Positions 21,429 to 57,700 of a DNA stretch of 64,000 nucleotides are shown in pieces (position 1 is the stretch's first letter; each line of letters begins with the position of its first letter). The stretch comes from Podarcis muralis (taxonomy: Eukaryota): positions 123,566,001 to 123,630,000 of the forward strand of contig NC_135656.1 in NCBI RefSeq assembly GCF_964188315.1, given 5' to 3'. The notes beneath the pieces were generated by a model. That model worked only from the letters and a program-made list of their open reading frames with translations, did no database searches and was not told the origin of the DNA. Position numbers and translations under genes: made by a program.

Positions 21429-22253
21429 TGTCAGAGCTGCCCTAGGTCCCAGCTCACAAAGGACCCACGCCAGTTCGTTGTTATATAAAACAGTCTTTAT
21501 TGAAGCTCAGTTCCGCTTTCACAGCCACAGCGCGCAGCTCTACGTCTCAAACTCTAGACCGCCGAAGCTCCGTCTGAATCTCCTCCCCCCAGACACCAGT
21601 TTAAGACTCTAGCCTTGCTCCACCTCTTCCGTTGCTCTCTTCTCCTCTGGGCCCGCCTGTCCCCTGGGGTCTCGCCTCTCCTAGACTCTTCTGACACTGA
21701 GTCTCCTGAGTCCTCCCCCTCCCTCCGGCGGGCTTTAGGACCTGGTTCCCAATCTGGGTTTCCTGCTGTGCCGCGCGCCTGTACATTCGAACTTGGCGCG
21801 CGCGCCCAGCCAGCCACCTTCCTCCTGACCGTTACACTGCTCCTGTCACTGCTTCCCCCTTCGGGGAGGCTAGCTGCACCTGACTCTCCCTCCGTTCCCT
21901 CACTCTGCGATGGAGGCGTGGCCACTCCTGACTCATCTTCTCTCCCTGCTGGAGGAGAAGCTGGCCCTGATACATGTGACTCTTCCCCCTCACTACGCTC
22001 TGGTGGAGGAGCTGGTCCTGCTCTCCCGCTGCTGCTTTGGGAGTCCCCGCTGGTCCCTTGCTTCTGGTGTGTCCCCCCTGGGACCCCCCTTGCCCTGGCC
22101 ATCGGTGCCCCCCTCTGGGAATCTTCTGATTCGCTGGAGAGACTCATGGAATCTCTCGGGCCACTTTCATACTCCCCTACGCTGCCCTCAGATTCTTCCC
22201 CTTCGCTCTCCATCTCCTCTCTCCCCTGTGCCTCTGCTCCTGAGCCCCTGACA
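21429..22253 (-). mobile_element. Solo LTR (825 bp) with an open U3 reading frame
   Basis: TGTCAG...CTGACA termini, perfect 5-bp TSD actgt, AATAAA at 21496-21501 (minus). ORF 21554..22324 spans most of it. Confidence 0.85.
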
Positions 22254-23120
22254 ACTGTCTTTGTAAGTTTCTGCATGTGAGATGAAACTCTGGCTGTGAA
22301 GCTGGATTGTTTGCACAGGTACAAAGATAAGACACTGATGCTGGTCCAACCACACTTGCTGCCAGTTAGCTTCCAGACCCAAGTCCTGGCTTTGACCTAT
22401 GAAGCCTTAAAAGGCCGAGGCCCACAATATCTCAGGGCCACCTTTCAGTTTGATCCAACCTCAGGGCTCTTCTGATGTCAATCAGGTTTTGCCAAAGTCA
22501 CATTTACCCTTGATGATCTATGGCAGCCTGTTGAGTAAACATGTTTTCTCCTGCTCTGCACCTGCTCCTACAAAGTTTCAGGGGAGATATTTCTTCCCTT
22601 AGCAATCATCAGAATCACAGTGATCTATTTTTATTCTTTCCTGAGTCCAACTAGCTCCCACCCCACTGCTTGAATATTGCCTTTGCAAGCAGTAAGACAT
22701 TGCCATTAAGGGCAGCAGGAAGATTTTTATTCCACTGTGCCTGAAAGGTTGGGTGTATAAAATATATATTGTGCCACAAAATCCTGGGGGCCAAGACACA
22801 GAGCAGGTGAAGTCAGAAGGTACATCTGTGTGATGCTGCCTTCTAGATCAGTAATTTAGGCCGACTGGCTTTCCAGGAAGGGAACATCCTCAGCTTTGCC
22901 TGGAACAGGGAGCAGAGATTGCACCCTCTCACCTTCTTGGTGCAGAATAGATGCTCCACTTCTGAACCATCACCCTTCAGCTCTGAGACCAGAGCTGGAC
23001 ACCTCCCTGTTTTTGTCAATTCATTGCAATCTCTGATTTGCAAGAATTTAGGGCTTATTGTGAACAGCAGCTAGTGTTTGGTGGAACAGCTACAAGGAAA
23101 GCGTAGCAGGTAGATCCAGA

Positions 23121-26100
23121 ATGATAACACTTCTTCTGTTCCTGCCTCTTGCAACCAACGGTATGCAGCAGAGGACAAAATGCCCACTGAATCCAATCAA
23201 GGAACAAGTTTTGGCTGCAAATTTTTACCGGCTAGCAGACTACCTCATTAGTGGAGTCATATATCCAATATTCTTTCATGAACAATCTCCTTTCACCTTT
23301 TCCAGCACCCCTGTCAGCAGACTTGAGACGTAAGAAATGATGCATTGATGTAGTTCTGCTTCCTGTCTACTCTCCATTTCCCCTAATGCACTTGTTTCCT
23401 GATAAACTTGAAAATGTTAATTACATTACATTTCATTAATTTGTTTAAAGAGTTCTTTGTGTCTGTTCAATTAGTGAAAAACCATGTTTCAAAGTGTTTT
23501 ATAATGAATTTTAAATAATTAGTAGTAGTTTTGACATGTACTGCTCTCCAAAGCATGACTTGTTTTCTAAAGGGTAGGAAATGTTGTGGGATGTGTTTGA
23601 GTTGCAAGTTATTTGTAATAAATAAAATGTGAACACAATTCTTTTCCCCATGCACAACATATTCCATGCAACTTCAAATTATAAATGTCGACTTTGCTTC
23701 CCTCCACCCTCCTCCCTTGCAAAACTTCTGCAGACACAGGTACAGGTAGACCTCTGTCTCACTTTGTTCTATCTCCTGGCCCCTTTTCCAAGTCACTTTG
23801 ATTAATACAAAAAAGAATGTGAGGATGACTGTGTGACACACTTTTTTTGCAGCTGGGTGGATAAGAAGAACTCACACGTTATTTCCTTCTCCCTTGCTCT
23901 TCGGGATATTAATCACAACCCCAGCCTCTTACCCAACATCACCCTGGGCAACAGCATCTATGATACCTGTTCTGAGGGAAGACTGACTTCTGACTCCATG
24001 ACAGACCTGCTTGCTGGTGGGAAAATCAACATTCCAAACTACAGCTGTGGGAAGCAGAAAAGGCTGCTAGCTGTTCTTGAAAAGAGTGAATTTGACATCT
24101 CCACACACATTGCAAGCATATTGGGCATCTACAAGATCCCACAGGTAATCAATGGGTCCAAGTGAAACACACCTGGCAATATTAGCCACCTAGTTGTTGT
24201 TGTTGTTGTTCCTGCTGCTGCTGCCATCTGTCTGTCTTGAAAGACGATGGTGTGAGCCTCTGGGATGAAGTCAAACCACTGTGTAAGTAGTATCAAAGTG
24301 ACCTTCACAGTGCACAAGCCTAGGCAGTGGGTACGGAGGTCCTGGGCTGCCCGGACGACAAGACCTCCCTCTCAGCCTCACTGCTGTGGTCCAAAGGAAA
24401 GCAGAGCAATGCATTTGGCACAAGCTTGGCTGCAGGAGTTGCTGCAAACAAAGCACCACTCAGCGGACTTAGGATTTGTGCACTGTTTACTCCTTAGCCT
24501 TTCCCAGATGTTGGAGGGTATCCAGGGTTATTGCAATTGAGGATAGCCAGGCCCCTTCCTGCTATCTTTCTAGGGCTTACTCGAAACTTTTCTTTTATTG
24601 CAGCAGGCATTTTCATTTAAGTTTGGTTATAGTGTTTTACCTTTTTGATTGTTTTTTAAAGAATCCTTTTTAACTGGCAAGAGAATTTTGCCATTAATTG
24701 GTATAAGGATTGCTTGATTTTTTTAAAAAATATTGTTTTACTTCCCAAAAAACGGTGAGGTTTGCACTAAATCTGTCAGCATCCTTCACATAGACTTCAC
24801 ATAGTATCGGGTCTTAATGCTGAAATACAAGCCATCAATCTCTTTCCCTTTCCTCACCAGCTCAGTTATGGCTTTGCTCTTTCTGATAAATTCCAGTCCC
24901 CCTTTGTCTACCGGATGGTCCCAAACCAAGAAACGCAGTACCAGGGGATGGTCCAACTCCTCCTGCATTTCAGGTGGACGTGGGTCGGCCTCTTTGCTCC
25001 AGACAATGACAATGGAGAAAGGTTCTTGAGTACCTTGACACCTCTGATGAACAAAGGGGAAATTTGTGTTGCCTTCACACAAAGAGTACAACGAGAAACT
25101 TGGCTATGGATACCCCATGAAGCACCTGCCCTGTGGAGACAAGTCAATGTATTTGTTTACTTTGCAGACTCTCAAAGTGGACTTTACATAATCATAGAGG
25201 TACAGTCCTTGCTTGAAAGGATACAGACTGAGGGGAAAGTCTGGATAACCACACTTCTTCAGAACAAAATGTTGTTATGTGATATTGATTGCTTCCAGTA
25301 TGCTCATGGCTCTTTGTCCTTTGTAGTGAAGACCAAAAAAAGGATGAGAAAGGACTATTATGGGCCAATGTCCTTGGCTAGTCAATGGTATTCAGAAGAA
25401 GCATTTGATTGTTCATATTCCAAGCATGCCTTGTCTGTGAGGGGTATGACCAAATGCAGAGAGAAGGATAATGTGAAGATGCTGCCCCAGGAAGAGATTG
25501 AAAGAATCCAGTCCCAAGACAGCTATGTGAATTACCTGAGTATCCAAACTGTGGCTCAAGCTTTAAATGTTGCATATTCATCCTGGTCAAAGAGGATGTT
25601 GATTGTGGGTGGAGGCAGCTTGGATCTTCAAAAGCTACAGCCATGGCAGGTAAGTCCTTTTCCTCTTGCAAACTGGAATTTGTTGACCCTGCTCTGGAAT
25701 CACCATGATAACATCATCAGAATCGGTCTTGAATTGAGTCAGAACATTGGTTGGTATTGTCTACATTGACTGATTGGCCATTGACATTGTTTTCACCTGC
25801 TTACAGAAATCCATCAGAATTTCTACTACCCAGGTTCCCAGGGGAAGGGAATTCTACACGAGTTACAGGTGGAGCACAACAGAAATGGCCCATTAGTGTA
25901 TGGGAAGTCAAGATCACAGATTCAGTGCAACGTTCCTGCAGACAGAAGTATCATCCAATCATTTGCAGGCAGCAACTCATAGAGATAGAAGTGGAGCTTG
26001 CTGGACCAATGCTCTGATTCAACAGTTATCTACTTCTTAGCAGCCTCCTACACTGCATAGTTTGGGAATCCACAAAAGGTCTAAACTTGTAGAATCTAGA

Positions 26101-32042: not shown

Positions 32043-33974
32043 TTGTAGCTAGGTAACTCTTGTCTAATCTGCTCGGTGTCTGTGTCTCTCCCTCTTCAGA
32101 GAGGAGCTGAATGAAATGCCCTCTTCAAGGAGGGTTCACCTTTTGCCAGCCTGTAATGGTCAGGGGTCCCTTTACCTTTTTAATGTCCCCACAGCACCAG
32201 GAAACTTAATATGCCCATCTGCTGAGACTTGTAGAATTTTTCAGGATTTAATTATGGTAGCTCCTCTACAGAATTTTGTCTTATGGTTTCGACTTCTACT
32301 ACATCACCTGTACAGTTTTACTGATGGATAGGTGGAACGTCTTCCAAATCTATCCATTAATAAAAAGCAACTCATAAGAAAAATCGAGGATATAAGAAAG
32401 GCCTTGTTGCATAGAAAGAACAGCCCTTCCACCCCCACGTGATCTCCAGCAACTAGTATTCAAAGGAAGTCAAAGGTCACTTCCAATGTTGCTGGGAGTA
32501 CATGTCAGGTAATCTTCTCCTGGGGAATATCTTGATGAGTGAGAGGAATGTCGGCAAGAGAGCCAAGGTGTATTGGGTTCACCAAACCTGTCACTTCCGG
32601 AGGGTTGTTGTTCTGCCATGGAGTCAGTAAGCACTAGGGCCAGAGAGACCACCTGACAATTTCTGAGAGATCTCCAGCAGTTCAGGAATGGAGGCAGTGC
32701 CGTACAATGATACTCCTCCGAGTTCCTTGGAGGAATCATAGAATTTTAATGCAATACGTGATTTTACAAATTATTATTCTAGCTTCGATATATTATAAAG
32801 TTGGGGCTTAACACATCTGCTTCTCAATATTCAAACATGACAAGAAGCTGCCTTGATACTGAGTCAGCCTATTGCTCCATTTAACCCACAGTTGTCTAAT
32901 CGAGGAGTCCATAATTATTTCTGGCCTTGGCACTAGATATTAATTTTTCGAGGTGAATAATAGGAAAAATGGGTGCTGCTGCCAAAATGTCTATCACCAA
33001 ATGCAATAGTGATGTCAGCAAATTTCAGGTGTGCAACTGAAATTAGGATACTGAACTGTGTTTTCCTCTATGCAGATGCTGATGAATGCACCAAATGTCC
33101 GGAAGATCAGCATCCAAATGAGGATAGACAACAATGTGTCCCCAAATTATTGACCTTCCTGACCTATGAAGAATGTTTGGGGATCCTCCTGGCTTCCCTT
33201 GCCCTCCTCTTATCCTTAACCACAGGCTTTGTCTTAGGAATCTTCCTTAAATACAAAGAAACTCCAATAGTCAAAGCCAACAACAGGGACCTCTCCTACA
33301 TCCTCCTCATCTCTCTACTGCTCTCCTTTTTGTCCTCCTTCCTCTTTATCGGGAATCCAAGGAAAGTGACCTGCCTTCTCCGTCAAACAGCCTTCTGCAT
33401 CATCTTCTCAGTTGCTGTCTCTTCCGTCTTGGCAAAAACCATCACTGTAGTTCTGGCCTTCCTGGCCACTAAGCCAGGGAACAAGGTGAGGAAATGGCTG
33501 GGGAAGAGTTTGGCCCACTCCATTGTCATTTCCTGCTCCAGTGTCCAAGTTCTCATCTGCACCATCTGGCTGGGGATCTCTCCTCCATTCCCAGACTTTG
33601 ACCTCAGCTCCCAGCTTGGAGAGATCATTGTCCAATGCAATGAAGGCTCTGTTGCCATGCTTTACAGTTCCCTTGGCTACATGGGCTTCCTGGCTGCCAT
33701 CTGCTTCGTGGTGGCTTTCCTAGCCAGGAAGCTGCCTGGGGCCTTCAACGAAGCCAAGCTGATCACCTTCAGCATGCTGGTCTTCTGCAGTGTTTGGGTG
33801 TCCTTTGTGCCCACCTACCTGAGCACCAAGGGGAAATTCATGGTAGCTGTGCAGATCTTCTCTATCTTGGTCTCCAGTGCTGGGCTCCTGGGCTGCATCT
33901 TCATTCCCAAATGCTACATTATTATATTGAGGCCTGATTTGAATACAAAGGAGCACCTGACAAGAAAAAACTAA
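23121..33974 (+). CDS. Vomeronasal type-2 receptor (V2R) copy 1, 848 aa. Exons 23121-23329, 23853-24144, 24861-25649, 29466-29696, 30483-30609, 33076-33974
   Basis: Six exons (209/292/789/231/127/899 nt) with canonical GT-AG and compatible phases sum to 2547 nt. Signal peptide; [14 protein letters not shown] and RWTWVGL Venus-flytrap motifs; Cys-rich CCYDC domain; 7TM with [26 protein letters not shown] and [12 protein letters not shown]. Confidence 0.93.
26648..27464. mobile_element. Non-autonomous hAT (Tip100-like) element
   Basis: TIR TA(T/A)GGTTACCAGAT, perfect 8-bp TSD atctaata; empty site in the local duplicate at ~26100. Confidence 0.85.
27850..28700 (+). mobile_element. RTE-X-like LINE 3' remnant with (TAA)n tail
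   Basis: [22 protein letters not shown] and [17 protein letters not shown]-type C-terminus. Confidence 0.6.
28295..28432. mobile_element. hAT-Charlie MITE
   Basis: Palindromic actacaactccca core, TIRs, perfect TSD ctctagaa (NTCTAGAN consensus). Confidence 0.9.
28700..29100 (-). mobile_element. L2 3' remnant (second subfamily)
   Basis: [16 protein letters not shown]...[16 protein letters not shown]; the same tail occurs at 52641-52877. Confidence 0.8.
30848..31300. mobile_element. Tc1/mariner MITE with an internal GCTAAGCC/CAGCTGATCC minisatellite
   Basis: TIRs plus TA TSD; tandem ~24-nt units at ~31010-31220. Confidence 0.88.
31565..32042 (+). mobile_element. L2 3' remnant with (ATT)n tail
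   Basis: [25 protein letters not shown] motif. Confidence 0.85.
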
Positions 33975-33985
33975 ACATGGCATTT

Positions 33986-34575
33986 CATAGAATCATAGAA
34001 TCATAGAGTTGGAATAGACCACAAGGGCCATCGAGTCCAACCACCTGCCAAGCAGGAAACGTTTGATCCTTGTTGTTGTTGTTGTTTAGTCGTTTAGTCG
34101 TGTCCGACTCTTCGTGACCCCCTGGACCAGAGCACGCCAGGCACCTCTGTCCTCCACTACCTCCTGCAGTTTGGTCAAACTCATGCTGGTAACCTCGAAA
34201 ACACTATCCAACCATCTCGTCCTCTGTCGCCCCCTTCTCCTTGTGCCCTCCATCTTTCCCAGCATCAGTGTCTTTTCCAGGGAGTCTTCTCTTCTCATGA
34301 GGTGGCCAAAGTACTGGAGCCTCAGCTTCAGGATCTGTCCTTCCAGTGAGCACTCAGGGCTGATTTCCTTAAGAATGGATGCGTTTGATCTTCTTGCAGT
34401 CCATGGGACTCTCAAGAGTCTTCTCCAGCACCATAATTCAAAAGCATCAACTCTTCGGCGATCAGCCTTCTTTATGGTCCAGCTCTCACTTCCATACATC
34501 ACTACTGGGAAAACCATGGCTTTAACTATATGGACCTTTGTTGGCAAGGTGACGTCTCTACTTCTCAAGATGCTG
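33986..34575 (-). mobile_element. CR1 tail (33986-34060) plus Bov-B 3' fragment (34071-34575) just after the V2R-1 stop
   Basis: (ATTCTATG)n CR1 tail; Bov-B ORF 34086..34568 and (CAA)n tail. Both are absent after the V2R-2 stop. Confidence 0.88.
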
Positions 34576-35210: not shown

Positions 35211-36852
35211 TCTGCCCTGGTTCCCTGTAACTTCACTTGTTGCAGTGAGGAAACCAGCAAAAGGCCCTCAAAGAGGGACCTCAGTGTCCAGGCAGAATAA
35301 TTGGGTGTAGACGTTCCTTCAGGTATACATGGCAGAGGCCAGTTAGGGCTTTAAAGGTCAGCACCAACACTTTGAATTGTGCTCATAAACATACTGAGAG
35401 CCTCTGAAGATCCTTTAGGACCGATGCTATACAGTCTTGGTGGCTACTCCCAGTCAACTAGTCTAGCTGCCACATTGTGGATTAGTTGTAGTTTCCGAGT
35501 CACCTTCAAGGGTAGCCCCATGTAAAGCACATTGTAGTAGTCCAAGCGGAAAATAACCAGGGCTTGAACCCCTCTGGGGAGACTGTGGGCAGTTAGGGTC
35601 TCAGCCAGTATCTTAAAAAGTTCATACACATTTACATCTAGTTTATGAGAAGAGAGATGATATTGGTAGATGATTCTTGCTGAGGATGAAAAATGCAAGA
35701 CTAGGAGAAAACTTAGAATATGGAAGGACATGACTGAAGTTTTGGTTTTGGACTGGACATGGACATTGATTTTACATAGATAAGAGACGAATGGTCTCAG
35801 GAAAATTAAAGTTGTCAGACTTGTAGATAAAGAGAACTTGGCTAAAGTTTTGTGCCATCTACAGGGTATCGTAATGCATGTGATAATGGCCTCATGTAGG
35901 CATTTTCTGTGACTACAATATAGACCCAAATTCTGGTGCTAAGAATAAATTTCTCATGTGGGCCTGTGCTCAGAGGAATCCTGGGCCTTAGTTCTGAATT
36001 ACGCATTGGGAGAGTGCTGCAGAAATCAGCTCCAGTGTGCTTTCAGGCAACCTTGGGTATCTCTTTGGCTGCTCTGAGAACAGGATACTGGACTACATTA
36101 GCCTCATCCATCCTAACACAGGTGCAAGGCACATGTGATGTTCTTATGATGCCCCTCCCCATAGTCATCAATTTGCACCAGGCTCTGGTTGAGCTAGAAG
36201 CTTGGGCTTCCACTTAAAAGCAAAGTAGACCCTGAAAGTCAAATAGTACTAGCAGGGGCAGAGTTGAGAATGTCAACTTAACTGACAGCTCCCAGTTTTG
36301 CTTGCTTGACCCACTCGCTTTATCCAGCAGCACAGATGATAATGGATGGGGTCCAAAAGGGACGCCCAATGCCCAGAATGAAGAAATGGCACCTAGTGGT
36401 CAGCAGCAGAGCAAGCAGCTTAATGCAGAGCCAAACAGCAATAAGAGAAGAGAAGAGAAAATGGCTCTCTCCTCCCTTTAAAGGACTAGGGTGGTAAAGG
36501 TATGGATATTTACAATAGGTGGTCATGTATCCAAGGAACGTGAAATAGATCCAAGACCAAGTTACTTGGTCAGATACACAAAAATAAGACACAACATGTT
36601 CACACCTGATGAAAACCTATTACCTCAGCACAAAGGAGGAAGAATGGTGGGCAGATTAGGATGGTCCAATATTAGAGATGTCAGATCATCTTACTGCGTC
36701 AGCAATGTGTGATATCACAAGTGCACATGACGTCACCAGTCACCCATAAGGTTGGGTGGAAATCGGCGTGCCTGACTTTGAACTCCCCTTTGGGATTTTT
36801 ATGTTGTGAGCTGCCCTGGGATCTTTGGATGAAAGATGGAATACAAACGTAA

Positions 36853-37797
36853 TGTCAGGAACATGGCTCACCCGAGTGCAGGGGAAGAGTGAGACTCAGA
36901 AATTAAGCTAAGTGAGAGAGGGAACGACTCTGGAGATGAGAGCTGGTTGACAGAGCCGAGAAGGGGCAGTTTGACACCCCCACTTCCCTAAGAAGACACT
37001 GTTAGCTCTCAACAAACAGGAGAGTTAGGAGGCAGCCAGAGCGTTGCTAGGCAATCAGCAGATAAGCAGTGAACTGAGAGTGTGTTGGGTGGAAGTAGAG
37101 AGGTGGAAAGCCAGCCTCTCAGTCCCTGTTCTAGGAGACTGGATAAGGTCAGAGGACAACGGAAGGGCAAGAGGGGAAGGGCAGAAATTTGGCGTCCTTC
37201 CTGCTGTGAAAGAGGCGGAGACTCAGACTGACCAACTATCTGTTGGGATATGAATACTACGCAGCTGAGAACAAGCAGTTCGATGTTTACATCACATTAT
37301 GGCCCTGACCGTGGGACAGGAAGTTCCAGGGATTTCTCAGGCATTTGTTCTTTGTGTAACATGAGACCTTCCTGTTGCTTGTGTGAAGGAAGTCTCAGTG
37401 AGTTGCTTGGAGAAGACTGAGCGAGCAGACATATTTTTGTACAGTTGTACAGTCAGAAATAAACTAGAGATGTAATAGACTTTCTGACTATCTTCTTTCT
37501 CCTGCTGCTATGCAAGAGCAAAGGGGGTGTGCACCTTTCACACAGGGAGGTGCCGCCTATCAAGATCTTCCTGGACTGCTGGGATGCCAACCAGGGTAGG
37601 TCACCGGCAAACAAGCCCCAGTAGCCTGGGAGAGGGGCCAGCCTCTCCCAAGGGGGCTAGTTTTTCAACACTATCGTCATTGTGAGCAGGCTAGAAGCCG
37701 TTCTCTGGATGTGTTTTTTGTAAATAAACATAACATAAAACTGCCAAAGTGTCATTACTTCTTACCAGGGCTTGCTTGCCTGCCTGAGAACATTACA
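36853..37797 (+). mobile_element. Solo LTR (945 bp) with a decayed U3 reading frame
   Basis: TGTCAGG...TTACA termini, TSD cgtaa/cataa, AATAAA motifs; absent at the paralogous site ~56655. Confidence 0.78.
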
Positions 37798-38210
37798 CAT
37801 AATAAATAGCAACAACAACTTGGATGTGTAAGCTGGGTGGGCCTCATCAAACTCTTCTGGAGTTTAGGTTCAAAGGCCGGAATGTTGCTGCATGTTCCTT
37901 TACAATAATATCTCTAGCACTTGAAATATATTTGTTGGGCTGGAGAGACAGATAGGGGATGTTGATGGTGTATGAACCATGCCCAGGGGCACCACTGACT
38001 GAGCTGGCAGAGGTGGTCTCTGGCATGGTTTTGGAGGACCATAGCCATGCAGAACTTGCCATTGGGCCCGGTTGGTACAAATCCTGGACTTACTCAAATG
38101 GGCACACGCTTGAATTCAACATTGGGTTCTGCAATGCACTCTCTCTGGGTTTTTTATTGAAAGATTTAGTACATTTGTTGGTTTTTTGAAATTCATTGTG
38201 TAGACCTATT

Positions 38211-38775
38211 TCATAGAATCATCGATTCTTACAGATGGAAGGGACCCAAGGGTCATCTAGTCCAACCTCCAGCAATGTAGGAATGTCAGCTAAAGCATCC
38301 AGGACAGATGACCCTCCGACCTCTGCTTAAAAACCTGCAGGGAAGGAGAGCCCACAACCTCCTGAGGGAGACTGTTCCATGGTCTAACAGCTCTTACTGT
38401 TAGAAGGTTTTTCCGTACGTCTAGTGGGAATCTCCTTTCCTACAACTTGAAGCCTTTGGTTTGAGTCCTACCTTCCAGGAGAAAACAAGCTTGCTCCATC
38501 CTCCATATGACAGCCCTACAGATATTTGACGATAGCTATCCTATCTCCTCCCAGTCTCCTCTTTCCCAGGCTAGACATACCTAGGTCCTTCAACCATTCC
38601 TCATAAGCAGGCACGCCCCCAACTTGGCCCTCCAGATGTTTTGGGACTACAATTCCCATCATCCCTGGGCACTGGTCCTGTTAGCTAGGGATGATGGGAG
38701 TTGTAGTCCAAGAACATCTGGAGGGCTGAGTTGGGGGGGGGCTGCTCATAAGGCTTGGCTTCTAGACCCTTGATC
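38211..38775 (-). mobile_element. CR1 3' remnant carrying a hAT MITE (38608-38744, TSD ctcataag)
   Basis: CR1 tail. The paralogous CR1 at ~57117-57700 has the empty ctcataag site. Confidence 0.8.
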
Positions 38776-39667
38776 ATCCTAGCTGACCTCCTCCTGCCAT
38801 TGAGTAAATTGATATGTTCTGCTCCTCTGTTGGAGGTTGGAAAATAGCATGTAGGGAAAGTTCTGCTCTCATCTCCAGCTTGTGGGCTTCCCTTTGGGTC
38901 ACCTGGTTGGCCATTGTGAGAACAGGATGCTGGACTTTGGGGGCCTTTGGCCTGATTCAACCTCAGGGCTCTTCTGATGTCAATCATGTTCTGCCCAACT
39001 CACCTTTACCCTTGATGATCCGTGGCACCCCATTGAGTAAACATGTTTTCTCCTGCTCTGCACCTGCTCCTATCAAGTTTCAGGGGAGATCTTTCTTCCC
39101 TTTACAATCATCAGAATCACAGTGAGCTATTTTTATTCTTTCCTGAGTCCAAGTAGCCCCCACCCCACCACTTGAATATTGCCTTTGGGACCAATAAGGT
39201 GAATATCACAATTAAGGACAGTAGGAAGATTTTTATTCCACTGTGCCTGAAAGGTTGGGTGTATAAAATATATATTGTGCCACAAAATCCTGGGGGCCAG
39301 ATATAGAGCAGGTTAAGTGAAAAGGTACATCTGTGTGATGCTGCATTCTAGATCAGAAATTTTGACTGACTGGCTTTCCAGGAAGGGGACATCCTCAGCC
39401 CTGCCTGGAACAGGGAGCAGAGATTGCACCCTCTCACCTTCTTGGTGCAGAATAGATTTCTCCACCTCTGAACCATCACCCTATAGCTCTGAGACCAGAG
39501 TTGGACACCTCCCTGTATTTGTCAATTCTCTGCAATCTCTGATTTGCTAGAATTTGCGGCTTATTAAGACGAGCAGCTAGTGTTGGGTGGAACAGCTACA
39601 AGGAAAGCATAGCAGGTAGATCCAGAATGATAACAGTAAAAAGGAAAGCTTAGCAGGTAGACCCAGA

Positions 39668-39904
39668 ATGATAACACTGCTTGTGTTCCTGTCTCTTGCA
39701 ACCAATGGGATGCAGCAGAGGGAAAAATGCCCACTTAATCCGATCAAGGAGCAAATGTTGGCAGTAAATTTTTACCGGCTAGCAGACTACCTCATTAGTG
39801 GATTCGCATCTCCAAGATTCTTTAACGATCAACCTCCTTTCACCTTTTTCAGCACCCCTGTCAGCAAACTTGAGTCGTAAGTAGTAGTAGTAGTAGTAGT
39901 AGTA

Positions 39905-39951
<47 letters not shown>

Positions 39952-42900
39952 TTATTATTTATACCCCGCCCATCTGGCTGGGCCTCCCCAGCCACTCTGG
40001 GCGGCTTCCATAAAAACCACAACCACAAAAACCATGTTGTTCTGCGTCCTACCTGCTCTCCATTTCCCGTGCTACACTTGTTTTCTGATAAACTTGAAAA
40101 TGTTCATTTCATTTCATTAATTTAAAGCTATGTTTCAAAGCTTTTCATAATGAATTTTAAATAATTAGTAGTAGTTTTGACATGTATTGCTCTCCAAAGC
40201 ATGACTTGTTTTCTAAAGGGTAGGAAATGTTGTGGGATGTGTTTGAGTTGCAAGTTATTTGTAATAAATAAAATGTGAACACAATTCTTTTCCCCATGCA
40301 CAACATATTCTATGCAACTTCAAATTTTAAATGTTGACTTTGCTTCCCTCCACCCTCCTCCCTTGCAAAACTTCTGCAGACACACGTACAGGTAGACCTC
40401 TGTCTCACTTTGTTCTACCTCCTGGCCCCTTTTCCAAGTCACTTTGATTAATACAAAAAAGAATGTGAGGATGACTGTGTGACACACTTTTTTTTGCAGC
40501 TGGGTGGATAAGAAGAACTCACACGTTATTTCCTTCTCCCTTGCTGTTCGGGATATTAATCATAACCCCAGCATCTTACCCAACATTACACTGGGCTACA
40601 GCATCTATGATACCTGTTCTGAGGGACGACTGACTTCTGACTCCATGACAGACCTGCTTGCTGGTGGGAAAATCAATATTCCAAACTACAGCTGTGGGAA
40701 GCAGAAAAGGCTGCTAGCTGTTCTTGAAAAGAGTAGATTTGATGTCTCCACACACATTGCAAGCATATTGGGCATCTACAAGATCCCACAGGTAATCAAT
40801 GGGTCCAAGTGAAACACACCTGGCAATATTAGCCACCTGGTTGTTGTTGTTGGCATCTGTCTGTCTTGAAAGACGATGGCGTGAGCCTCTGGGACGAAGT
40901 CAAACCACTGTGTTAGCACTATCAAAGTGATGTCCACAGTGCACAAGCCTAGGCAGTCGGTACGGAGGTCCAGGGCTGCCCAGATGACAAGACCTCCCTC
41001 TCAGGCTCACTGCTGTGGTCCAAAGGAAAGCAGAGCAATGCATTTGGCACAAGCTTGGCTGCAGGAGTTGCTGGAAGGAGGCAAACAAAGCACCACTCAG
41101 CTGACTTAGGATTTGTGCAGGGTTTACTCCTTAGCCTTTTATTCTCCCAGATGTTGGAGGGTATCCAGGGTTATGGAACTCCCTTGCAGTTGAGGACAGA
41201 CAGGCCCCTTTCCTACTGTCTTTCTAGGGTCTATGCAAACTTTACCTTTTTTCTTTTCTTTCCCCCCTTCCCTTCCCTTCCCTTTCTTTACAACAGGCAT
41301 TTTAATTGAAGTTTTATTATACAGTTTTACCATCTTGATTTTTTTACTGAATCTTTTTTAAGTGCATAGAGAATTTTGCCATTACTCAGTATAATAATTG
41401 CTTGTTATACTCACAAAACGGTGAGGTTTGCATTAAATCTGTCAGCATATTTCATATAGAAGTATCCCACCTTAATCCTTAAGCTATCAATCTCTTTCCC
41501 TTTCTTCACCAGCTCAGTTATGGCTTTGCTCTTTCTGATAAATTCCAGTCCCCCTTTGTCTACCGGATGGTCCCAAACCAAGAAACGCAGTACCAAGGGA
41601 TGGTCCAACTCCTCCTGCATTTCAGGTGGACATGGGTCGGCCTCTTTGCTCCAGACAATGACAGTGGAGAAAGGTTCCTGAGTACCTTGACACCTCTAAT
41701 GAACAAAAGGGAAATTTGTGTTGCCTTCACACAAAGAGTACTACGAGAAACATGGCTATGGATACCCCAAGAACCACCTGCCCTGTGGAGACAAGTCAAT
41801 GTATTTGTTTACTTTGCAGACTCTCAAAGTGGACTTTACATAATCATAGAGGTACAGTCCTTACTGGAAAGGATACAAACTGGGGGGAAAGTCTGGATAA
41901 CCACAGTTCCTTCAAACAAAATGTTGTTATGTGATATTGACTGCTTCCAGTATGCTCATGGCTCTTTGTCTTTTGTAATGAAGACCAAAAAAAGGATGAA
42001 GAAGGACTACTATGGGCCAATGTCCTTGGCTAGTCAACAGTATTCAGAAGAAGCATTTCATTGTTCATATTCCAAGCATGCCTTGTCTGTGAGGGGTATG
42101 ATCAAATGCAGAGAGAAGGATAATGTGAAGATGCTCCCCCAGGAAGAGATTGAAAGAATCCAGTCCCAAGACAGCTATGTGAACTACTTGAGTATCCAAG
42201 CTGTGGCTCAGGCCTTAAATGCTGCATATTCATCCTGGTCAAAGAGGATGTTGATTGTGGGTGGAGGCAGTTTGGATCTTCAAAAGCTACAGCCATGGCA
42301 GGTAAGTCCTTTTCCTTTTACAAACTAGAATTCATTGTCCCTGCTCCGGAATCACCATGATAGGATCATCTGAATCTGTCTTGCACTGTGTCAGAACACT
42401 GGTTAGTACTGTCTACATTGACTGACTGGCCGTTGACATTGTTTTCACCTGCTGGCAGAAGTCCATCAGAGTTTGTCCCATCCAGGTTCCCAGTTGAAAG
42501 GAATTCTACACTAGTTACAGGTGGAGCACAACAGAAACGACCCATTGGTGTATGGGAAGTCAAGATCACAGATACAGTGCTATATTCCTGCTGACAGAAG
42601 TATCATCCAATAATTTGCAGGCAGAGACGGCAAAACATAGAAAGAGATGTGGAACTCATTGGACCAATGCGCTGATTCAACTTAGCAGCCTCTAACATGA
42701 ATACAGTGGTACCTCGGGTTAAGTACTTTATTCGTTCCGGAGGTCCTTTCTTAACCTGAAGCGGTTCTTAACCTGAAGCACCACTTTAGCTAATGGGGCC
42801 TCCCGCTGCTGCTGCACCGCCGAAGCATGATTTCTGTTCTCATCCTGAAGCAAGGTTCTTAACCCGAGGTACTATTTCTGGGTTAGCGGAGTCTGTAACC

Positions 42901-45900: not shown

Positions 45901-48900
45901 GCTAATTCTGAGGTTTAGATGTGTCCCAGAAACACAAGGTGAGGACATCATGAATAAATTGACAAAGGAAATAGCGAAATGGCTTCGAGTGAGAGAAGAA
46001 GACCTGATATTGGATACTGACAAAATTTTCAGGATGAAACCAGATGCTAAAAGACCATTTAAGGGGCCAGGGGATTGCCTAGTTTTCCTCAATTTGAGGT
46101 TGCTGAAAGATAAGATCTTACAAAAAAGAATGACAATAGATGGACATAATATATTAATATACAAAGAAATTCCTAAATGAATTCTTAAAAAATGAAATAA
46201 TTACAAGATATTGACAGATGTGCTGAAATCTAAAGGAATTATGTTCAATTGACTTCAATCTTGTTGGTGCTTCTCTGGAGCTAGGTCCATTGAGTTCAAT
46301 GAAACCTGCTCTTGAGTAAACATGTATAAAATTTCAAAGTAAATAGGAAACATTCCAAACACATTTCCCCAACTTGGTGCCCTCCAAATATTGTGCACTA
46401 CAACACCCATGCACCCCAACTAGCATTGTGGAAAGATATCTGAGGGGCACCAGGTTGGGTATAGCTGGAGTATAGTAAGGTATTCCACATCTGTTTGGGC
46501 ATAGAGACATGCCACACAAGCAAACTGGGCATCAAATTCTGCACTAGGTGCAGACTTTGAAAGCAACACCAATGTTTCCATTGGCAGATGTCATGGCAAC
46601 AAATGGAGGACTTGTTTTATTGCTGATGTTCATATGATGGTTTATGCCATGCTCCTGTTTCTTGTTAACTGTTATCTGCAATACAGCAATACTATTGTAG
46701 CATAGAAATGTGAGATGAGCAGAAACACACACACACACACGCACCCAAATTATCTTCCATGCAACTCTGCAAAAAATAAAGAGAAACGTAACTGTCCCAA
46801 AATAGGGCCTGGTATCAACTTCGGTCTTTATCCAAAGGCACAAATTCACCTATCACTTTCTCCTTAGTGCTCAGTTTTCTGTTCATGCCTAGATGGTGCC
46901 TCGTTCAAGATGCACAGAAAGTTGTCTCCCTGGATATTCCAGAAAAGTTCAGGAAGGGAAGCCACCCTGCTGCTATGATTGCGCTCCCTGCTCAGAAGGA
47001 ACCATCTCCACTCAGGAAGGTAGGAGAGGATCTCAGGGGAAATGGCCTTTGATGGGAGGATGGGGCAAATATTTGAGCCAGTCCAAATAAAATGTTAATA
47101 ACCATAATTAACAAGCAGTTTATATTTTATAGTCTCTCTGCATTCTTTGTTCTCTAATATGGACAGACCTCCTAGTTTGTGGCGAGAGAGGGTGCCCCCC
47201 CACTCTCTTATGACGTCCTTGCTGGCTATTCCCTCCCTTCTGTTTCTCTTTCCATTATCTCGTAGCTAGGTAACTCTTGTGTAATCTGATCAGTGTCTGT
47301 GTCTCTCCCACTTCAGAGAGGAGCTGATCTGCCTGAGAATGCATTCCCCAATCCTCTGATTCAGACCATTCCCTGACAGGCACCTCTTTTTCTAGAAAAT
47401 AGAACCGGAAATGTCACCCCATGAATGAAATGTGCTCTTCAGGAGGGTCACCTATTGCCAGCCAGTAATGTCCCCACAGCACCAGGGATTTTTTCGGTCC
47501 ATGTAAAATTTAATTTGCCCATCTTCAGAGACGTGTAGAATTTTTCAGGATTTAATTATGGCAGTTCCCCTATGGAATTTTATGTTATGGTTTTTATAAT
47601 GTTGTTTTCCCATGCATCATATTGGTTTCCAGTACATCACCCATTTAGTTTTACTGATGGATAGGTGGAACATCTTCAAAATTTATCCATTAATAAAAAG
47701 TAACTCATAAGAAAAATCGAGGATATAAGAAAAGTATTGCTGCATAGAAAGAACAGCCCTCCCACCCCATGTGATCTCCAGCAACTAGTATTCAAAGGCA
47801 TTCAAAGGTCACTTTCAATGTTGTAGGGAGTATATGGCAGTGAATCTGGTCCTCGGGAATATCTTGATGAGGGGAAAGTGGGCAGGATAAATAGGATGTA
47901 ATGGTTACAGATAGGTAGCCGTGTTGGTCTGCCATAGTCAAAACAAAAAAAATTCCTTCCAGTAGCACCTTAAAGACCAACTAAGTTAGTTCTTGGTATG
48001 AGCTTTCGTGTGCATGCACACTTGAAGAAGCGTATCTGAAGAAGTGTGCATGCACACGAAAGCTCATACCAAGAACTAACTTAGTTGGTCTTTAAGGTGC
48101 TACTGGAAGGAATTTTTTTTGTTTTGAGGATGTAATGGGTTCACCAAACCTGTGGCCTCAGGACGGTTGTTGTCCTGCCATGGAGTCAGTCGGCACTAGG
48201 GCCAGAGAGACCAGCTGACAATTTCTGAGAGGTCCCCAGAAGTTCAGGAATGGAGGCAGTGCCGCACAATTATACTCCTCTGAGTTCCTTGGAGGAATAA
48301 AGCAATATGTGATTTAGAAACAACAGCAACAACATGATTTATTATTTCTACCCCGCCCATCTGGCTGGGCCTCCCCAGCCACTCTGGGCGGCTTCCAAGA
48401 GAAGGTTAAATATACATTAAAACATCTGTTATTAAAAACTTCCCTAAACAGAGAATAATTGTAGCTTCAATATATTCTAAAATAAGTTGAGTCTTAACCC
48501 ATATGCTTCACAATAATCAAACATCACAAGAAACTGCCATTATACTGAGTCAACCTATTGATTCATTTAACCCAAGGTTGCATAATCCAGCGGTCCAGAA
48601 TTTTTTCTGGCCTTTGCACTAGATTTCCCAGGTGAAAAATAGCAGCTGGGTGCTGCCGCCAACCTGTCACTCACCAAATGCAATAGTGATGCCAGCTTTA
48701 AAGCCTTGATTGCCAGCACTTCAAAGTACAGTGTGGGCCTTTTTGAAAATCCTGTGCAAGCAGCTCGACAGCATGCAGACTACTGTAGGTTTGTGACGGA
48801 TGTTAGGATACTGAACTGTGTTTTCCTCTCTGCAGATGCAGATAAATGCACCAAATGTCCAGAAGATCAGCATCCAAATGAGGATAGACATCAATGTGTC

Positions 48901-49734
48901 CCCAAAATATTTACCTTCCTGTCCTATGAAGAATGTTTGGGGAGCCTCCTGGCTTCCCTTGCCCTCCTCTTATCCTTAACCACAGGTTTTGTGTTAGGAA
49001 TCTTCACTAAATATAAAGAAACTCCCATAGTCAAAGCCAACAACAGGGACCTCTCCTACATCCTCCTCATGTCTCTACTGCTCTCCTTTTTGTCCTCCTT
49101 CCTCTTCATTGGAAAGCCAAGGAACGTGACCTGCCTTCTCAGACAAACAGCCTTCTGCATCATCTTCTCAGTTGCTGTCTCTTCTGTCTTGGCAAAAACC
49201 ATCACTGTAGTGCTGGCCTTCCTGGCCACTAAGCCAGGGAACAAGGTGAGGAAATGGCTGGGGAAGAGTTTGGCCCACTCCATTGTCATTTCCTGCTCCA
49301 GTGTCCAACTTGTCATCTGCACCATCTGGCTGGGGATCTCTCCTCCATTCCCAGACTTTGACCTGAGCTCTCAACTTGGAGAGATCATTGTCCAATGCAA
49401 TGAAGGCTCTGTTGCCATGTTTTATGGTTCTCTTGGCTACATGGGCTTCCTGGCTGCCATCTGCTTCACAGTGGCTTTCTTAGCAAGGAATCTGCCTGGG
49501 GCATTCAATGAGGCCAAGCTGATCACCTTCAGCATGCTGGTCTTCTGCAGTGTTTGGGTGTCCTTTGTGCCCACCTACCTGAGCACAAAGGGAAAATTCA
49601 TGGTAGCCGTTCAGATCTTCTCCATTTTGGCCTCCACTGCTGGGCTCCTGGGTTGCATCTTCATTCCCAAATGCTACATTATTATATTGAGGCCTGATCT
49701 GAACACAAAGGAGCACCTGACAACAAAAAACTAA
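39668..49734 (+). CDS. V2R copy 2, 848 aa. Exons 39668-39876, 40500-40791, 41513-42301, 44806-45036, 46893-47019, 48836-49734
   Basis: Exon lengths and phases identical to copy 1. All exons open, with the same class C GPCR motifs. Confidence 0.93.
42704..42945. mobile_element. Tigger-like MITE
   Basis: TIRs plus TA TSD. Confidence 0.88.
43579..44101 (+). mobile_element. 5'-truncated RTE-X-like LINE
   Basis: 12-bp TSD gttgtgaaccac; CPNW...[18 protein letters not shown]-terminus; terminal AATAAA. Confidence 0.6.
45141..46248. mobile_element. L1 insertion with an inverted 5' segment (ORF2 end on minus, ORF1 piece on plus)
   Basis: ORF 45484..45744 (-) L1 ORF2 C-terminus; ORF 45818..46180 (+) L1 ORF1-like; 13-bp TSD ttgact(g/t)caatct; empty site in V2R-1 at ~29780. 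Confidence 0.75.
47905..48126. mobile_element. Penelope-like element inverted terminal-repeat remnant
   Basis: Perfect 85-bp inverted repeat (47939-48023 / 48042-48126), 12-bp TSD aggatgtaatgg; absent in the V2R-1 intron. Confidence 0.75.
48032..48069 (+). ncRNA. Minimal type-I hammerhead ribozyme motif
   Basis: GUAU-CUGAAGA-A-GUGUG(CAUG)CACAC-GAAA-GCUC/AUAC: conserved core, stem I, stem II, palindromic AGCU helix III. Confidence 0.7.
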
Positions 49735-52900: not shown

Positions 52901-53553
52901 GTATCGAGATCATTCTATCATTTTTGAGATTGCATCCTAGTACAGCTTTCGCCACTCTTTTGTTGACTATGAGGGCCACTCCATTTCTTTTACGGGTTTC
53001 TTGCCCACAGTAGTAGATGTGATGGTCATCCAAACTGAATTTGCCCATTCCCCTCCATTTTAGTTCACTGATGCCCAGGATGTCAATATTTATTCTTGCC
53101 ATCTCATTTTTGACCACCTCCAACTTACCCAGGTTCATGGTTCTTACATTCCAGGTTCCTATGCAATATTTTTCTTTACAGCATTGGACTTTCCTTTCGC
53201 TTCCAGGCATATCCGCAACTGAGCGTCCTTTCGGCTTTGGCCCAGCCGCTTCATCAGCTCTGGATCAAATTGTACTTGCCCTCCGCTCTTCCCCAGTAGC
53301 ATGTTGGACGCCTTCCGACCTGAGGGGCTCATCTTCCAGCGTCATAACTTTTATATGCCTGTTGTCTTTGTCCATGCAGTTTTCTTGGCAGGGATACTGG
53401 AGTGGCTTGCCGGTTCCTCCTCCAGGTGGATCACGTTTGGTCAAAACTCTCCACTATGACCTGTTCATCTTGTGTGCCCTGCTCGGCGTAGTTCATAGCT
53501 TCTCTGAGTTCTTCAAGCCCCTTCGCCACGGCAAGGCAGTGATCCATGAAGGG
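49947..53553 (-). mobile_element. Full-length Bov-B LINE (frameshifted)
   Basis: 5' UTR, EN (IGTWNVRT, GDWNAKVG), RT (FIDYAKAF, VRQGCILSP, YADD) and (CAA)n tail; 13-bp TSD ggtaaaaggtctt; empty site at ~34770. Confidence 0.95.
52641..52877 (+). mobile_element. L2 3' tail nested in Bov-B
   Basis: Matches the 28700-28920 L2 tail. Confidence 0.82.
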
Positions 53554-56500
53554 GGTAAAAGGTCTTATGGGAATAATAATAATAACAACAACAACAATAA
53601 CAATATATTTATTTATTTATTTCTCCACCCATTCTGGGTGGCTTACAGCACATTTTGAAATATAAGAAAAATTAAACATTAAAAACTTCCCGATACAGGT
53701 CTGCCTGATACAGGGCTGTCTTCTAAAAGTGATGTAGGTCTTTATATCCTTGTCATGTGAAGGGGGGAGGTTCCACAGGGAGGGCGCCACAACCCAGAAG
53801 GTTTTCTGCCTGGTTCCCTGTTACTTCTCACAGTGAGGGAACCACCAGAAGGCCCTCAGTATTCAGGCATTGCAATGGGGGTGGAGATGCTACTTCAGAT
53901 ATACAGCGCCCAGGCTGTTTAGGGCTTTAAAGGTTAGCACCAAAACTTTGAATTGTGCTCAGAAATGTACTGGGAGCAAGTGAAAATACTTTAGCACCTA
54001 TGTTATATTGTCTCGGCGGCCACTCCCAATCACCACATTGTGGATTAGTTGTAATTTTTGAGTCAACTTCAAGGGTTTCCCACGTAAGTCACATTGTAGT
54101 AGTCCAAGCAGGAGATAACCAGGGTATCCATAGCAGGATTTCATAAGCTGCTTAAGACGTTGCAAACTGAATTGTTAAAGTACAAAATGAAATTAGCTAA
54201 ATTAGGGGGGGAAATGATATTAAACTAGCTACATAAGAGATATTGGTAAAAGATCCTATGGGAATCTAATAATAAGAATAAGAATATTTTATTATTTATT
54301 TCTCCAGCCACTCTGGGTGGATTACAGCACATATCAAAACATAATAAAACACCAAACATTAAAAACTTCCCAATACAGGGTTGCCTTCAGATGTATTCTA
54401 AAAGTTATGTTGTTCTTTATCTTCTTGACATCTTGGGGTGAGGGGTGCCACTACCAAGAAGGCTCTCTCTGTAGATTCATAATCTGGGGAACCGGGTTCA
54501 CATCTCCGCTCCTCCACATGCAGCTGCTGGGTGACCTTGGGCTAGTAACACTTCTCTGAAGTCTATCAGCCCCACTCACCTCACAGAGTGTTTGTTGTGA
54601 GGGAGGAAGGGAAAGGAGAATGTTAGCCGCTTTGAGACTCCTTTGGGTAGTGATAAAGCGGGATATCAAATCCAAACTCTTCTCTTCTTCTCTGCCCTGG
54701 TTCCCTGTAACTTCACTTGTTGCAGTGAGGGAACCAGCAAAAGGCCCTCAAAGGGGGACCTCAGTGTCCAGGCAGAATGATTGGGTGTAGACGTTCCTTC
54801 AGGTACACATGGCAGAGGCCAGTTAGGGCTTTAAAGGTCAGCACCAACACTTTGAATTGTGCTCATAAACATACTGAGAGCCTCTGAAGATCCTTTAGGA
54901 CCGATGCTATATGGTCTCGGCGGCCACTCCCAGTCAACTAGTCTTGCTGCCGCATTGTGGATTAGTTGTAGTTTCCGAGTCACCTTCAAGGGTAGCCGCA
55001 TGCAAAGCACATTGTAGTAGTCCAAGCAGAAAATAACCAGGGCTTGAACCCCTATGGGGAGACTGTGGGCAGTTAGGGTCTCAGCCAGTATCTTGACTGA
55101 AATTTTGGTTTTGGACTGGAGCATGGACATTGATTTTAGATCGTCAGAAAAGAGATGAGTAGTCTCAGGAAAATTAAAGTTGTCAGACTTGTAGATAAAG
55201 AGAACTTTGTAAAGTTTTGTGCCATCTACAGAGTATCGTAATGCATGTGATAATGGCCTCATGTAGGCATTTTCTATTTTCTATGCTAACAATTTCAAAG
55301 TATAGAACCAAGTGTTTTTAGGTCAGGTGATCGTCTGCTCTTCAGAAATAGCTGCACCTGGGCAGAATCCGTCTCTCTGGAAATACCTTTGCTGCTTTGC
55401 ATGTGTCAATTTATATTGATCTCTCGTGCTGTTTCCTTCAGATTTCTTCCCTGTATTACAGACTCTGAACCTCGAAGTAAAATCTCCTTTTATGACATGA
55501 TTTCTGGTGTCTTCCTTTATGGCCTTAATAACTGACAAGCCCCTCACCCATCTAGAATCTGCGCAATTGCTGACCTGCAGTCTGCAGCCTGCAGTCAGAC
55601 ATCTCAGTTTGATTAATCCTAAACCATCAGAGGGGTGACCCTAAATGAAAATCCTGCACAACAACAAAAAAGGCCTTTTCCACCCTAAGGCTGCTTCAGT
55701 AAAGAGAAATTGATGGGGATTAGGAGTGTAACATTGTGTTACAACCATATAAACCCAAATTCTGGTGCTAAAAATAAATTCCTGATGTGAGCATGTGCTC
55801 AGAGGTATCCTGGGCCTTAGTTCTGAATTACGCATTGGGAGAGTGCTGCAGAAATCAGCTCCAGTGTGCTTACAGGCATCCTTGGGGTATCTGTTTGGCT
55901 GCTGTGAGAACAGGATGCTGGATTACATTAGCCTCATTCATCCCAACACAGGTGCAGGGCTCATCTGATGCCCCTCCCCATAGTCATTATTTTGCGCTAG
56001 GCTCTGGTTGAGCTAGAAGCTTGGGCTTCTAGTTAAAAGCAAATTAGTCCCTGAGATTCTAATTGCGCTAGTAAGGGCAGAGCTGAGAATTTCATCTTAA
56101 CTGGCAGCTCCCATTTTGGGTTGCTTGGCCCACCCGCTTTATCCAGCAGCACAGATGATAATGGATGGGGTCCAAAAGGGATGCCCAATGCCCAGAATGA
56201 AGAAATGGCACCTAGTGGTCAGCAGCAGAACAAGCAGTTTAATGCAGAGCCAAACAGCAATGGCTCTCTCCTCCCTTTAAAGGACCAGGGTGTTTACCAT
56301 ATGAATGTTTACAATAGGTGGTCAATTTTCCAAGGAATGTGAAATGGATCCAAGTCCTGGTTACTGGTCAGATACACAAAAACAAGAGATGGCATGTTCA
56401 CACCTGATGAAAATCCATTACCTCAGGACAAAGGAGGAAGAATGTGGGCAGATTAGGATGGTCCAACAGTGAAGATGTCAGACCCTCCTGCTTGAGGAGA

Positions 56501-57116
56501 TGATGTGTGATATCACAAGCACACGTGACGTCGCCAGTGTGCAGTAGGCTCCCATAATGTCGGGTGGTACTCGGCATACCTGATTTTGAACTCCCCTTTG
56601 GGATTTGTATGTTGCGAGCTGCCCTGGGATCTTTGGATGAAAGACAGTATACAAACCACAACAACGTGTATGTGTAAGCTGGGTAGACCTCATCGAATTC
56701 ATTGGGATACTGGATAAAAGCTTCAATGGGGCTTCAAAGGGCTGGATGTTGCTGCAATTGTCCATGGAAGCATTATTTCCTTTACAAAAAATTCTCTAGT
56801 TCTTGGAATGTATTTGTTGGGCTGGAGAGAAATATAGGGGATGCTGATGGTGTATTAACTACGCTATTGCCCAGTGGCACCACAGACTGAGATGGCAGAG
56901 GTGGTCTCTGGCACGGTTTTGGAGGACCATAGTTATGCAGAATTTGCCATTGGGGCCACTTGGGACTTAATGGCTTCCATGACAATCATTGGACTTACTC
57001 AAATGGGTGCACACCTGAATTCAAGATTGGGTTGCTGCAATGCACTTTCTCTGGGTCTTTTATTGAGAGATTCAGTGCTTTTGTTTGTTTTTGAAATTCA
57101 TTGTGTAGGCCTATTT

Positions 57117-57700
57117 CATAGAATCATAGAATCTTTGAGTTGGAAGTGATCCAAGGGTTATTTAGTTCAACCCCCTGCATTGCAGGAATGTCAGCTAAAG
57201 CATCCAGGGCAGATGACCCTCCGACCTCTGCTTAAAACCTCCAGGGAAGGAGAGCCCACAGCCTCCTGAGGGAGACCTTTCCACTGTCAAACAGCTCTTA
57301 CTGTCAGAAAGTTTTTCCTTATGTCTAGTTGGAATCTTGTTTCCTGCAACTTGTTTCCTGCAACTGTTCCATGGTCTAACAGCTCTTACTGTTAGAAGGT
57401 TTTTCTGTGTGTCTAGTGGGAATCTCCTTTCCTACAACTTGAAGCCATTGGTTCAAGTCCTACCTTCCAGGAGAAAACAAGCTTGCTCAAAATTAACGAA
57501 TTGTATAAATATGAAAAGCATAATTTTTTTGAGAAAAAAAACAAGCTTGCTTCGTCCTCCATGTGACAGCCCTTCAGATATTTGAAGATGGCTATCCTAT
57601 CTCCTCACAGTCTCCTCTCTCCCAGGCCAGACATACACAGCTCCTTCAACCGTTCCTCATAAGGCTTGGTTTCTAGACCCTGGATAGTTGACCTGCTCTT
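57117..57700 (-). mobile_element. CR1 3' remnant
   Basis: (ATTCTATG)n tail; paralog of 38211-38775. Confidence 0.78.

What the first reader, a model, noticed from the sequence alone, without database searches (positions are those of the whole stretch)
36854..37231. Second LTR: same start frame, broken only by three point stops, ending SPCSRRLDKVRGQRK...W..CCERGGDSD*
Seen: translating from LTR base 2 (GTC AGG AAC ATG...) gives 126 codons with no frameshift and three stops (36890 TGA, 36989 TAA, 37070 TGA). Both TGAs, and the TGT in SPCSRR, are explicable as CpG decay of CGA/CGT. The frame register relative to the LTR edge and the terminal GGDSD match the 21429 LTR. Inference: independent support for an ancestral U3-encoded protein.
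Basis: partly seen in the sequence, partly recalled or inferred. Interest (0 to 1): 0.72.

Follow-up and report, generated by a model that had tools for sequence, protein, structure and literature searches.

The report
Retrotransposon Pol tail in lizard LTR
The broken reading frame lies in a leftover end-repeat of a lizard retrotransposon and is probably the decayed tail of the element's main polyprotein running on into the repeat, an arrangement known from plant elements, not a separate gene.

Summary
36853-37797 is a solo LTR (5-bp target duplication, LTR-free paralogue at 56019-57304). Three stops in 125 codons is chance-level (P 0.12-0.15). The alignment with the 21429 ORF is not significant (BLASTP E 0.93). 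The CpG explanation fails at the third stop.

The real explanation comes from outside. The 21429 ORF is the C-terminal tail of Ty3/Gypsy Pol (96% over 124 aa to a Podarcis Pol). Two Podarcis Pol groups run in frame from LTR base 2 for 100-218 residues, acidic then basic. The 36853 frame shares that register, the charge polarity (P about 0.008), the end motif and the LTR layout, and most laid family copies lack its third stop. No Pol of its own family was found, profile searches are not significant, and indels in sister copies leave its register unproven.

Verdict: probably (0.65) a decayed Pol tail of a related family, not a standalone U3 protein. Pol extension into the 3' LTR is known in plant chromoviruses; such long lizard tails did not turn up in my literature searches.

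The parts
36853..37797 (+). Solo LTR, 945 bp, TGTCAGG...CATTACA, member of a multi-copy family
   Evidence: family records begin at 36853 and end at 37797; LTR-free paralogue
36848..36852 (+). Left target-site duplication copy (5 bp)
   Evidence: one mismatch to the right copy
37798..37802 (+). Right target-site duplication copy (5 bp)
36854..37231 (+). Broken frame from LTR base 2, 125 codons plus stop, broken at 36890, 36989 and 37070; acidic first 85 residues (net -8), basic last 40 (net +6); likely decayed Pol tail
37214..37228 (+). 15-nt motif (GGDSD codons, contains TCAGA) shared with 21572-21586(-); protein motif or transcription-start element, unresolved
   Evidence: pattern derived from these two sites, so circular
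37235..37670 (+). About 440-bp block that several family contigs lack (shorter LTR subfamily); contains an extra AATAAA at 37458
   Evidence: joints 37234-37240 to 37670-37722 in X1 and X15
37723..37728 (+). Likely polyadenylation signal, 74 nt from the LTR end (72 nt in the 21429 LTR)
21429..22253 (-). Partner solo LTR, 825 bp, perfect 5-bp target duplication; a different family at DNA level
21554..22252 (-). Open 232-codon frame from LTR base 2, equal to the C-terminal tail of Gypsy Pol
   Evidence: (P 0.002-0.005; codon periodicity P 0.004)
36795..36847 (.). High-copy short repeat whose A-rich tail received the insertion
   Evidence: depth and loose ends
56019..57304 (+). Paralogous duplicate of both flanks, contiguous and without the LTR (empty site)
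   Evidence: 83% and 79% identity to the two flanks

Best explanation
The region is U3 of a solo LTR left by recombination of a lizard Ty3/Gypsy element of the Tf1/sushi (Amn-san) type. In such elements the pol frame does not stop after the integrase chromodomain region. It crosses the polypurine tract and continues from LTR base 2 through U3, adding a disordered acidic-then-basic tail to integrase. This is shown at the level of predicted proteins for two Podarcis groups and for the 21429 LTR; it is inferred for the 36853 family. The tail is translated only from the 3' LTR of a full-length RNA (established LTR biology). A solo LTR cannot make it, so this copy decays neutrally. The most likely role of the tail is a flexible linker ending in an Arg/Lys cluster for nuclear import or chromatin tethering (inference by analogy with Ty1 integrase and plant CRM elements).
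For: The 21429 ORF hits four long proteins at 50-56% identity (E down to 5.8e-43); three are named Podarcis Gypsy Pols and all show the in-frame junction. Its own family Pol P0157 is 96% identical over 124 aa. Of 77 proteins examined, 39 show the junction; 14 of 20 group A tails (209-218 aa) and 14 of 19 group B tails (100-115 aa) run to a common end. Group A tails stay open at 54-86% identity. For the 36853 frame: charge polarity 0.24 (group A 0.15-0.26, group B 0.29-0.44; its other two frames 0.03 and -0.07), P 0.008-0.009 against DNA shuffles, 0.46% of 12726 genomic windows. It scores 81 and 76 against P0011 and P0005, above all 4962 decoys, and the 13 top scores in a six-frame comparison are all this frame. 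The third stop is absent from most laid family depth, and the 12 indel rows shown all lie outside the frame. The AATAAA-to-end distance is 74 against 72 nt, and the ends fit the Sushi motif of PMC3601003 Table 3. The AlphaFold model of the 21429 tail is unstructured except two short helices in the basic end (pLDDT 48.5).
Against: No Pol of the 36853 family was found: 0 of 277 candidates, none among 121 fetched proteins. Group A profile HMM gives E 16 (0.27 without bias correction), and group B does not rank the frame in its top 22 of 1704 chunks. Without the last five residues the scores fall to 40-54 and 19-215 of 4962 decoys match them. Against P0003, P0035 and the 21429 ORF, 20, 2 and 8 decoys reach the full score. 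P0011 and P0005 were picked as top scorers. The stop count is uninformative. 6 of 8 listed sister pieces are out of register with this copy, and 13 of 25 indel rows and 208 of 248 substitution rows were not shown. The Pol sequences are gene predictions, not observed proteins. No function of the tail is tested.
Confidence: 0.65

Rival explanations
1. The 36853 U3 was never coding. A purine-rich U3 gives few stops, the first codons come from the integrase-recognition end, and GGDSD is the translation of a DNA element at the transcription start (initiator or self-primer of Tf1/sushi elements).
For: Stop count at chance level. HMMs not significant. The similarity rests largely on the last five residues. 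In the 21429 LTR a TTAAA word lies about 29 nt upstream of the A of TCAGA, which is TATA-initiator spacing. Sister pieces are often out of register.
Against: The charge polarity is specific to this frame and survives local-composition shuffles. The third stop is copy-specific. Both differences in the 15-nt motif are synonymous (only two sites). No TATA-like word lies at that distance in the 36853 LTR. The motif can be both cis element and coding.
Confidence: 0.27
2. U3 encodes a standalone accessory protein with its own start (ATG at codon 4), like retroviral U3 genes (MMTV sag, lentiviral nef; recalled).
For: An ATG at codon 4 of the frame; the 21429 ORF is significantly open.
Against: The 21429 ORF is continuous with Pol in its own family. 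The first Met is not conserved: positions 10, 25, 36 or 140 in group A, and absent from 8 of 12 distinct group B tails. U3 lies upstream of the LTR's own start site (established). No shorter standalone family was seen: 4 hits among 1.84 billion representatives, all Pol-tail fragments.
Confidence: 0.06
3. This copy has been co-opted by the host as a gene or short-ORF transcript in the vomeronasal receptor cluster.
For: The insertion is old and shared by two species labels: near-identical contigs span both junctions in X1 and X15.
Against: Three stops; the longest ATG-initiated stretch in the frame is 9 codons. In two partly read RNA runs no read was 99% alike and 1 of 173 reached 95%.
Confidence: 0.02

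Closest known systems
Podarcis Ty3/Gypsy Pol proteins in UniRef (P0001, P0011, P0035, P0150, P0157; group B P0039, P0133)
   Same: Pol enters the LTR at base 2 and ends near an S-[DE] motif after a basic cluster; the 21429 LTR belongs to group A.
   Different: The 36853 frame is shorter than group A (125 against 209-232 aa), not alignable by HMM, broken, and its own Pol is not in the sets searched.
Plant CRM group A and Reina (Bingo) chromoviruses (PMC3059260, PMC3605345; passages read)
   Same: The gag-pol frame extends into the 3' LTR; in CRM group A the LTR-encoded part carries the putative targeting domain (CR motif).
   Different: Plant, tRNA-primed clades. The lizard tails follow a chromodomain-position region and are low-complexity. 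No similarity to the CR motif was tested.
Tf1/sushi (Amn-san) vertebrate chromoviruses (PMC3601003, bioRxiv 2022.12.06.519325, PMC4131045; passages read)
   Same: Terminal motifs, AATAAA close to the LTR end, Pol order RT-RH-IN with SH3_Tf2-1, Chromo hit in group B.
   Different: PMC3601003 describes Sushi U3 as T-rich; these U3s are T-poor (12% and 17%), as expected for a coding purine-rich tail.
Ty1 integrase C-terminal module (PMC8487063 abstract and opening; PMC10050235 passages)
   Same: Long disordered linker ending in NLS and targeting segment: a functional analogy only.
   Different: Copia superfamily, not LTR-encoded; no homology claimed.

Membership tests
Solo LTR | TG...CA ends with a target-site duplication | tested here: met
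   5-bp duplication, one mismatch
Solo LTR | Empty-site counterpart and multi-copy family with the same ends | tested here: met
Solo LTR | Polyadenylation signal near the 3' end | tested here: met
   AATAAA at 37723, 74 nt from the end
Tf1/sushi (Amn-san) chromovirus | Terminal motifs TGTYANR / CNTNACA | tested here: met
   36853 LTR fits both ends (the 21429 LTR fits only the 5' one). Weak discriminator: the rGmr1 3' motif is one base away
Tf1/sushi (Amn-san) chromovirus | Pol with PR-RT-RH-IN order and C-terminal chromodomain | tested here: inconclusive
   No internal sequence for the 36853 family. For relatives: order met; Pfam Chromo hit in P0133 and P0121, none in P0001 or P0157
Tf1/sushi (Amn-san) chromovirus | Self-priming primer-binding site | not testable with these tools
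   Needs a full-length element; no genome held
Pol tail read into the 3' LTR | Frame continuous with Pol across the polypurine tract | tested here: inconclusive
   Met for the 21429 family; no Pol found for the 36853 family
Pol tail read into the 3' LTR | Homology to known tails | tested here: inconclusive
   Beats all decoys for 2 of 5 references; HMM not significant
Retroviral U3 accessory gene (sag/nef type; recalled) | Own conserved start, separate from pol | tested here: not met
Plant CRM CR motif | Sequence similarity to the CR motif | not tested
   No CR sequences were fetched; no Pfam hit for either frame

The most novel reading that the evidence does not exclude
Lizard Tf1/sushi retrotransposons have repeatedly turned U3 into coding sequence for a 100-230-residue integrase tail whose basic W/C-containing end is a nuclear-import or chromatin-targeting module. 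This would be a vertebrate parallel to the LTR-encoded CR motif of plant centromeric elements. The group with the longest tail has lost the Pfam chromodomain signature, though that region is still 88-95% conserved among its subfamilies. The 36853 LTR would mark a third such family.
Probability: 0.25. Interest if true: 0.5.

Novelty: new variant of a known kind. Interest (0 to 1): 0.27.

Why it matters
If the tail is functional, U3 in these elements is under double constraint as promoter and as integrase coding sequence, and vertebrate Gypsy elements may carry an unstudied targeting or import module. For annotation it explains long open frames in lizard solo LTRs, which look like orphan genes but are Pol remnants. 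The copy at 36853 itself is a dead insertion.

Tried and rejected
No whole genome is held for the window. No Pfam family for either frame. No Rfam match at 36500-38200. No long protein matches the 36853 frame. ESM Atlas gave no usable hit for the P0001 tail or the last 52 codons, which shows neither absence nor novelty. No match in JGI metagenome or viral contigs. No RNA holder listed. Four look-ups of earlier findings returned nothing. The sigma-70 scan is irrelevant to a eukaryote and was disregarded. My motif-based count of tail lengths in non-squamate Pols found only 12 of 81 proteins and was not used. Butler et al. 2001 is not held. Rejected: the low stop count as evidence; CpG decay as the common cause of the stops; the shared VR start as protein evidence; a standalone U3 gene.

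Full report
Setting. The window is eukaryotic: zinc-finger arrays, vomeronasal-receptor-like exons and LINE fragments, read by eye from the ORF list. The best protein hits are from Podarcis lizards, so a lacertid origin is inferred. No whole genome is held.

The element. 36853-37797 starts TGTCAGG, ends CATTACA and is flanked by a 5-bp duplication with one mismatch. A paralogous duplicate of both flanks at 56019-57304 is contiguous and lacks the insert. Family contigs begin at 36853 and end at 37797. It is a solo LTR. Listed sister pieces differ from it by 13.6% on average (11 pieces). Near-identical contigs span both junctions in runs of two species labels, so the insertion is old. The partner at 21429-22253 (minus strand) is a solo LTR with a perfect duplication. 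The two do not align significantly as DNA (P 0.32), so they are different families.

The observation. The translation and the three stops are correct, but the inferences drawn from them are weak. Shuffles give P 0.12-0.15 for three or fewer stops in a fixed frame, and the next frame has as few. Modelled decay of an open frame predicts 0.7-2.6 stops, giving a likelihood ratio of 0.3-2.1 against never-coding DNA. 'No frameshift' needs a homologue. In one search, 6 of 8 listed sister pieces within the frame have non-triplet net offsets, while two are gap-free over 37043-37221 and 37131-37234. All 12 indel rows shown lie downstream of the frame; 13 were hidden. The other two stops were not among the 40 of 248 rows shown. 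The alignment with the 21429 ORF gives BLASTP E 0.93, P 0.10 against residue shuffles and P 0.007 against shuffled DNA.

What the 21429 ORF is. It is open beyond chance (P 0.002-0.005) with codon periodicity (P 0.004). A search of longer proteins found 4 hits among 7797 candidates: three Podarcis Gypsy Pols and one unnamed fragment, in all of which the ORF is the C-terminus, in frame after integrase. P0157 is its own family (96% over 124 aa). Among 77 proteins examined, 39 show the Pol-LTR junction. In group A, 14 of 20 run 209-218 residues to a common end; in group B, 14 of 19 run 100-115 residues. The others are truncated or shifted. Between group A subfamilies the tail is 54-86% identical against 89-93% for RT, so it diverges fast yet stays open, which suggests selection for an open frame (inference; these are gene predictions). 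A snake Pol (P0121) appears to run on in the same way for about 55 residues (junction read by eye). The first Met is not conserved, so this is not a separate gene.

Is the 36853 frame such a tail? For: the same register; net charge -8 then +6, a polarity within the group A range, absent from its other frames, with P about 0.008 against three kinds of shuffle. It scores above all 4962 decoys for 2 of 5 references, and the third stop is copy-specific. Many contigs lack about 440 bp right after the frame's stop; that shorter form has the same layout as the 21429 LTR, and the AATAAA lies 74 against 72 nt from the end. Against: no Pol of this family was found, profile HMMs are not significant, and the similarity leans on the last five residues. 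That motif may be a transcription-start element, since a TATA-like word precedes it at the right distance in the 21429 LTR, though not here. I put the Pol-tail origin at 0.65 and a never-coding U3 at 0.27.

Mechanism. Shown: the in-frame junction in predicted Pols of two groups, and lack of predicted structure except two short helices in the basic end (low confidence, 7 sequences). From established LTR biology: only the 3' LTR U3 is in the element RNA, so a solo LTR cannot express the tail. Inferred: a flexible linker with a basic end for nuclear import or chromatin tethering, by analogy with Ty1 integrase (PMC8487063 abstract and opening; PMC10050235 passages). CK2 phosphorylation of Ty1 integrase (PMC9673352, abstract only) is a possible parallel for the acidic Ser-rich part and is untested. 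Two partly read RNA runs (12% and 6%) gave 173 reads, none 99% alike.

Known and new. Extension of gag-pol into the 3' LTR is described for plant CRM and Reina chromoviruses (PMC3605345 passages; PMC3059260 passages), where CRM group A encodes its putative targeting motif in the LTR. The LTR ends fit the Sushi motif (PMC3601003 passages); Tf1/sushi and Amn-san are described (passages). Seven searches (listings, plus the passages cited) showed no description of long LTR-encoded Pol tails in squamates. Subscription journals, Repbase, Dfam, Butler et al. 2001 (nothing seen) and all supplements were not seen and could hold one. The retroviral sag and nef comparisons are recalled.

Verdict. A dead solo LTR whose U3 probably preserves a decayed Pol tail. 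How the two upstream stops and the register behave across the family remains open. Interest 0.27; new variant of a known kind.

Noticed in passing
window 37235-37670: About 440-bp block right after the frame's stop, with its own AATAAA, present in some family copies and absent in others: two LTR length classes.
   Followed up: partly
window 56019-57304 against 36200-38400: Segmental duplicate without the LTR; the insertion postdates the duplication or was confined to one copy.
   Followed up: yes
window 36795-36847: Very high-copy short repeat with an A-rich tail, represented in RNA reads; the LTR inserted into its tail. Family not identified.
   Followed up: no
P0001, P0157 against P0133: Group A Pols have no Pfam Chromo hit although the region is 88-95% conserved among them; group B has a clear hit. 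Group A also has a 139-152-residue linker before the LTR, against 74 in group B.
   Followed up: partly
P0121, P0076: A king cobra and a newt Gypsy Pol also seem to continue past a GG-D/S junction into LTR-like sequence; read by eye only.
   Followed up: no
window 22500-25800, 32900-34000, 39000-42300, 48600-49700, 57900-59700: Tandemly duplicated vomeronasal type-2 receptor-like exons, at least three paralogues (family label recalled from the translations).
   Followed up: no
window 1-470 and 9900-11670: C2H2 zinc-finger arrays with 84-bp period.
   Followed up: no
window 49956-53264 (-): Long RTE/Bov-B-like LINE reading frames in few pieces, with shorter copies at 11680 and 34086 (label recalled).
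   Followed up: no
window 47933-48132: 91-bp inverted repeat arms, 98% complementary, 18 nt apart.
   Followed up: no
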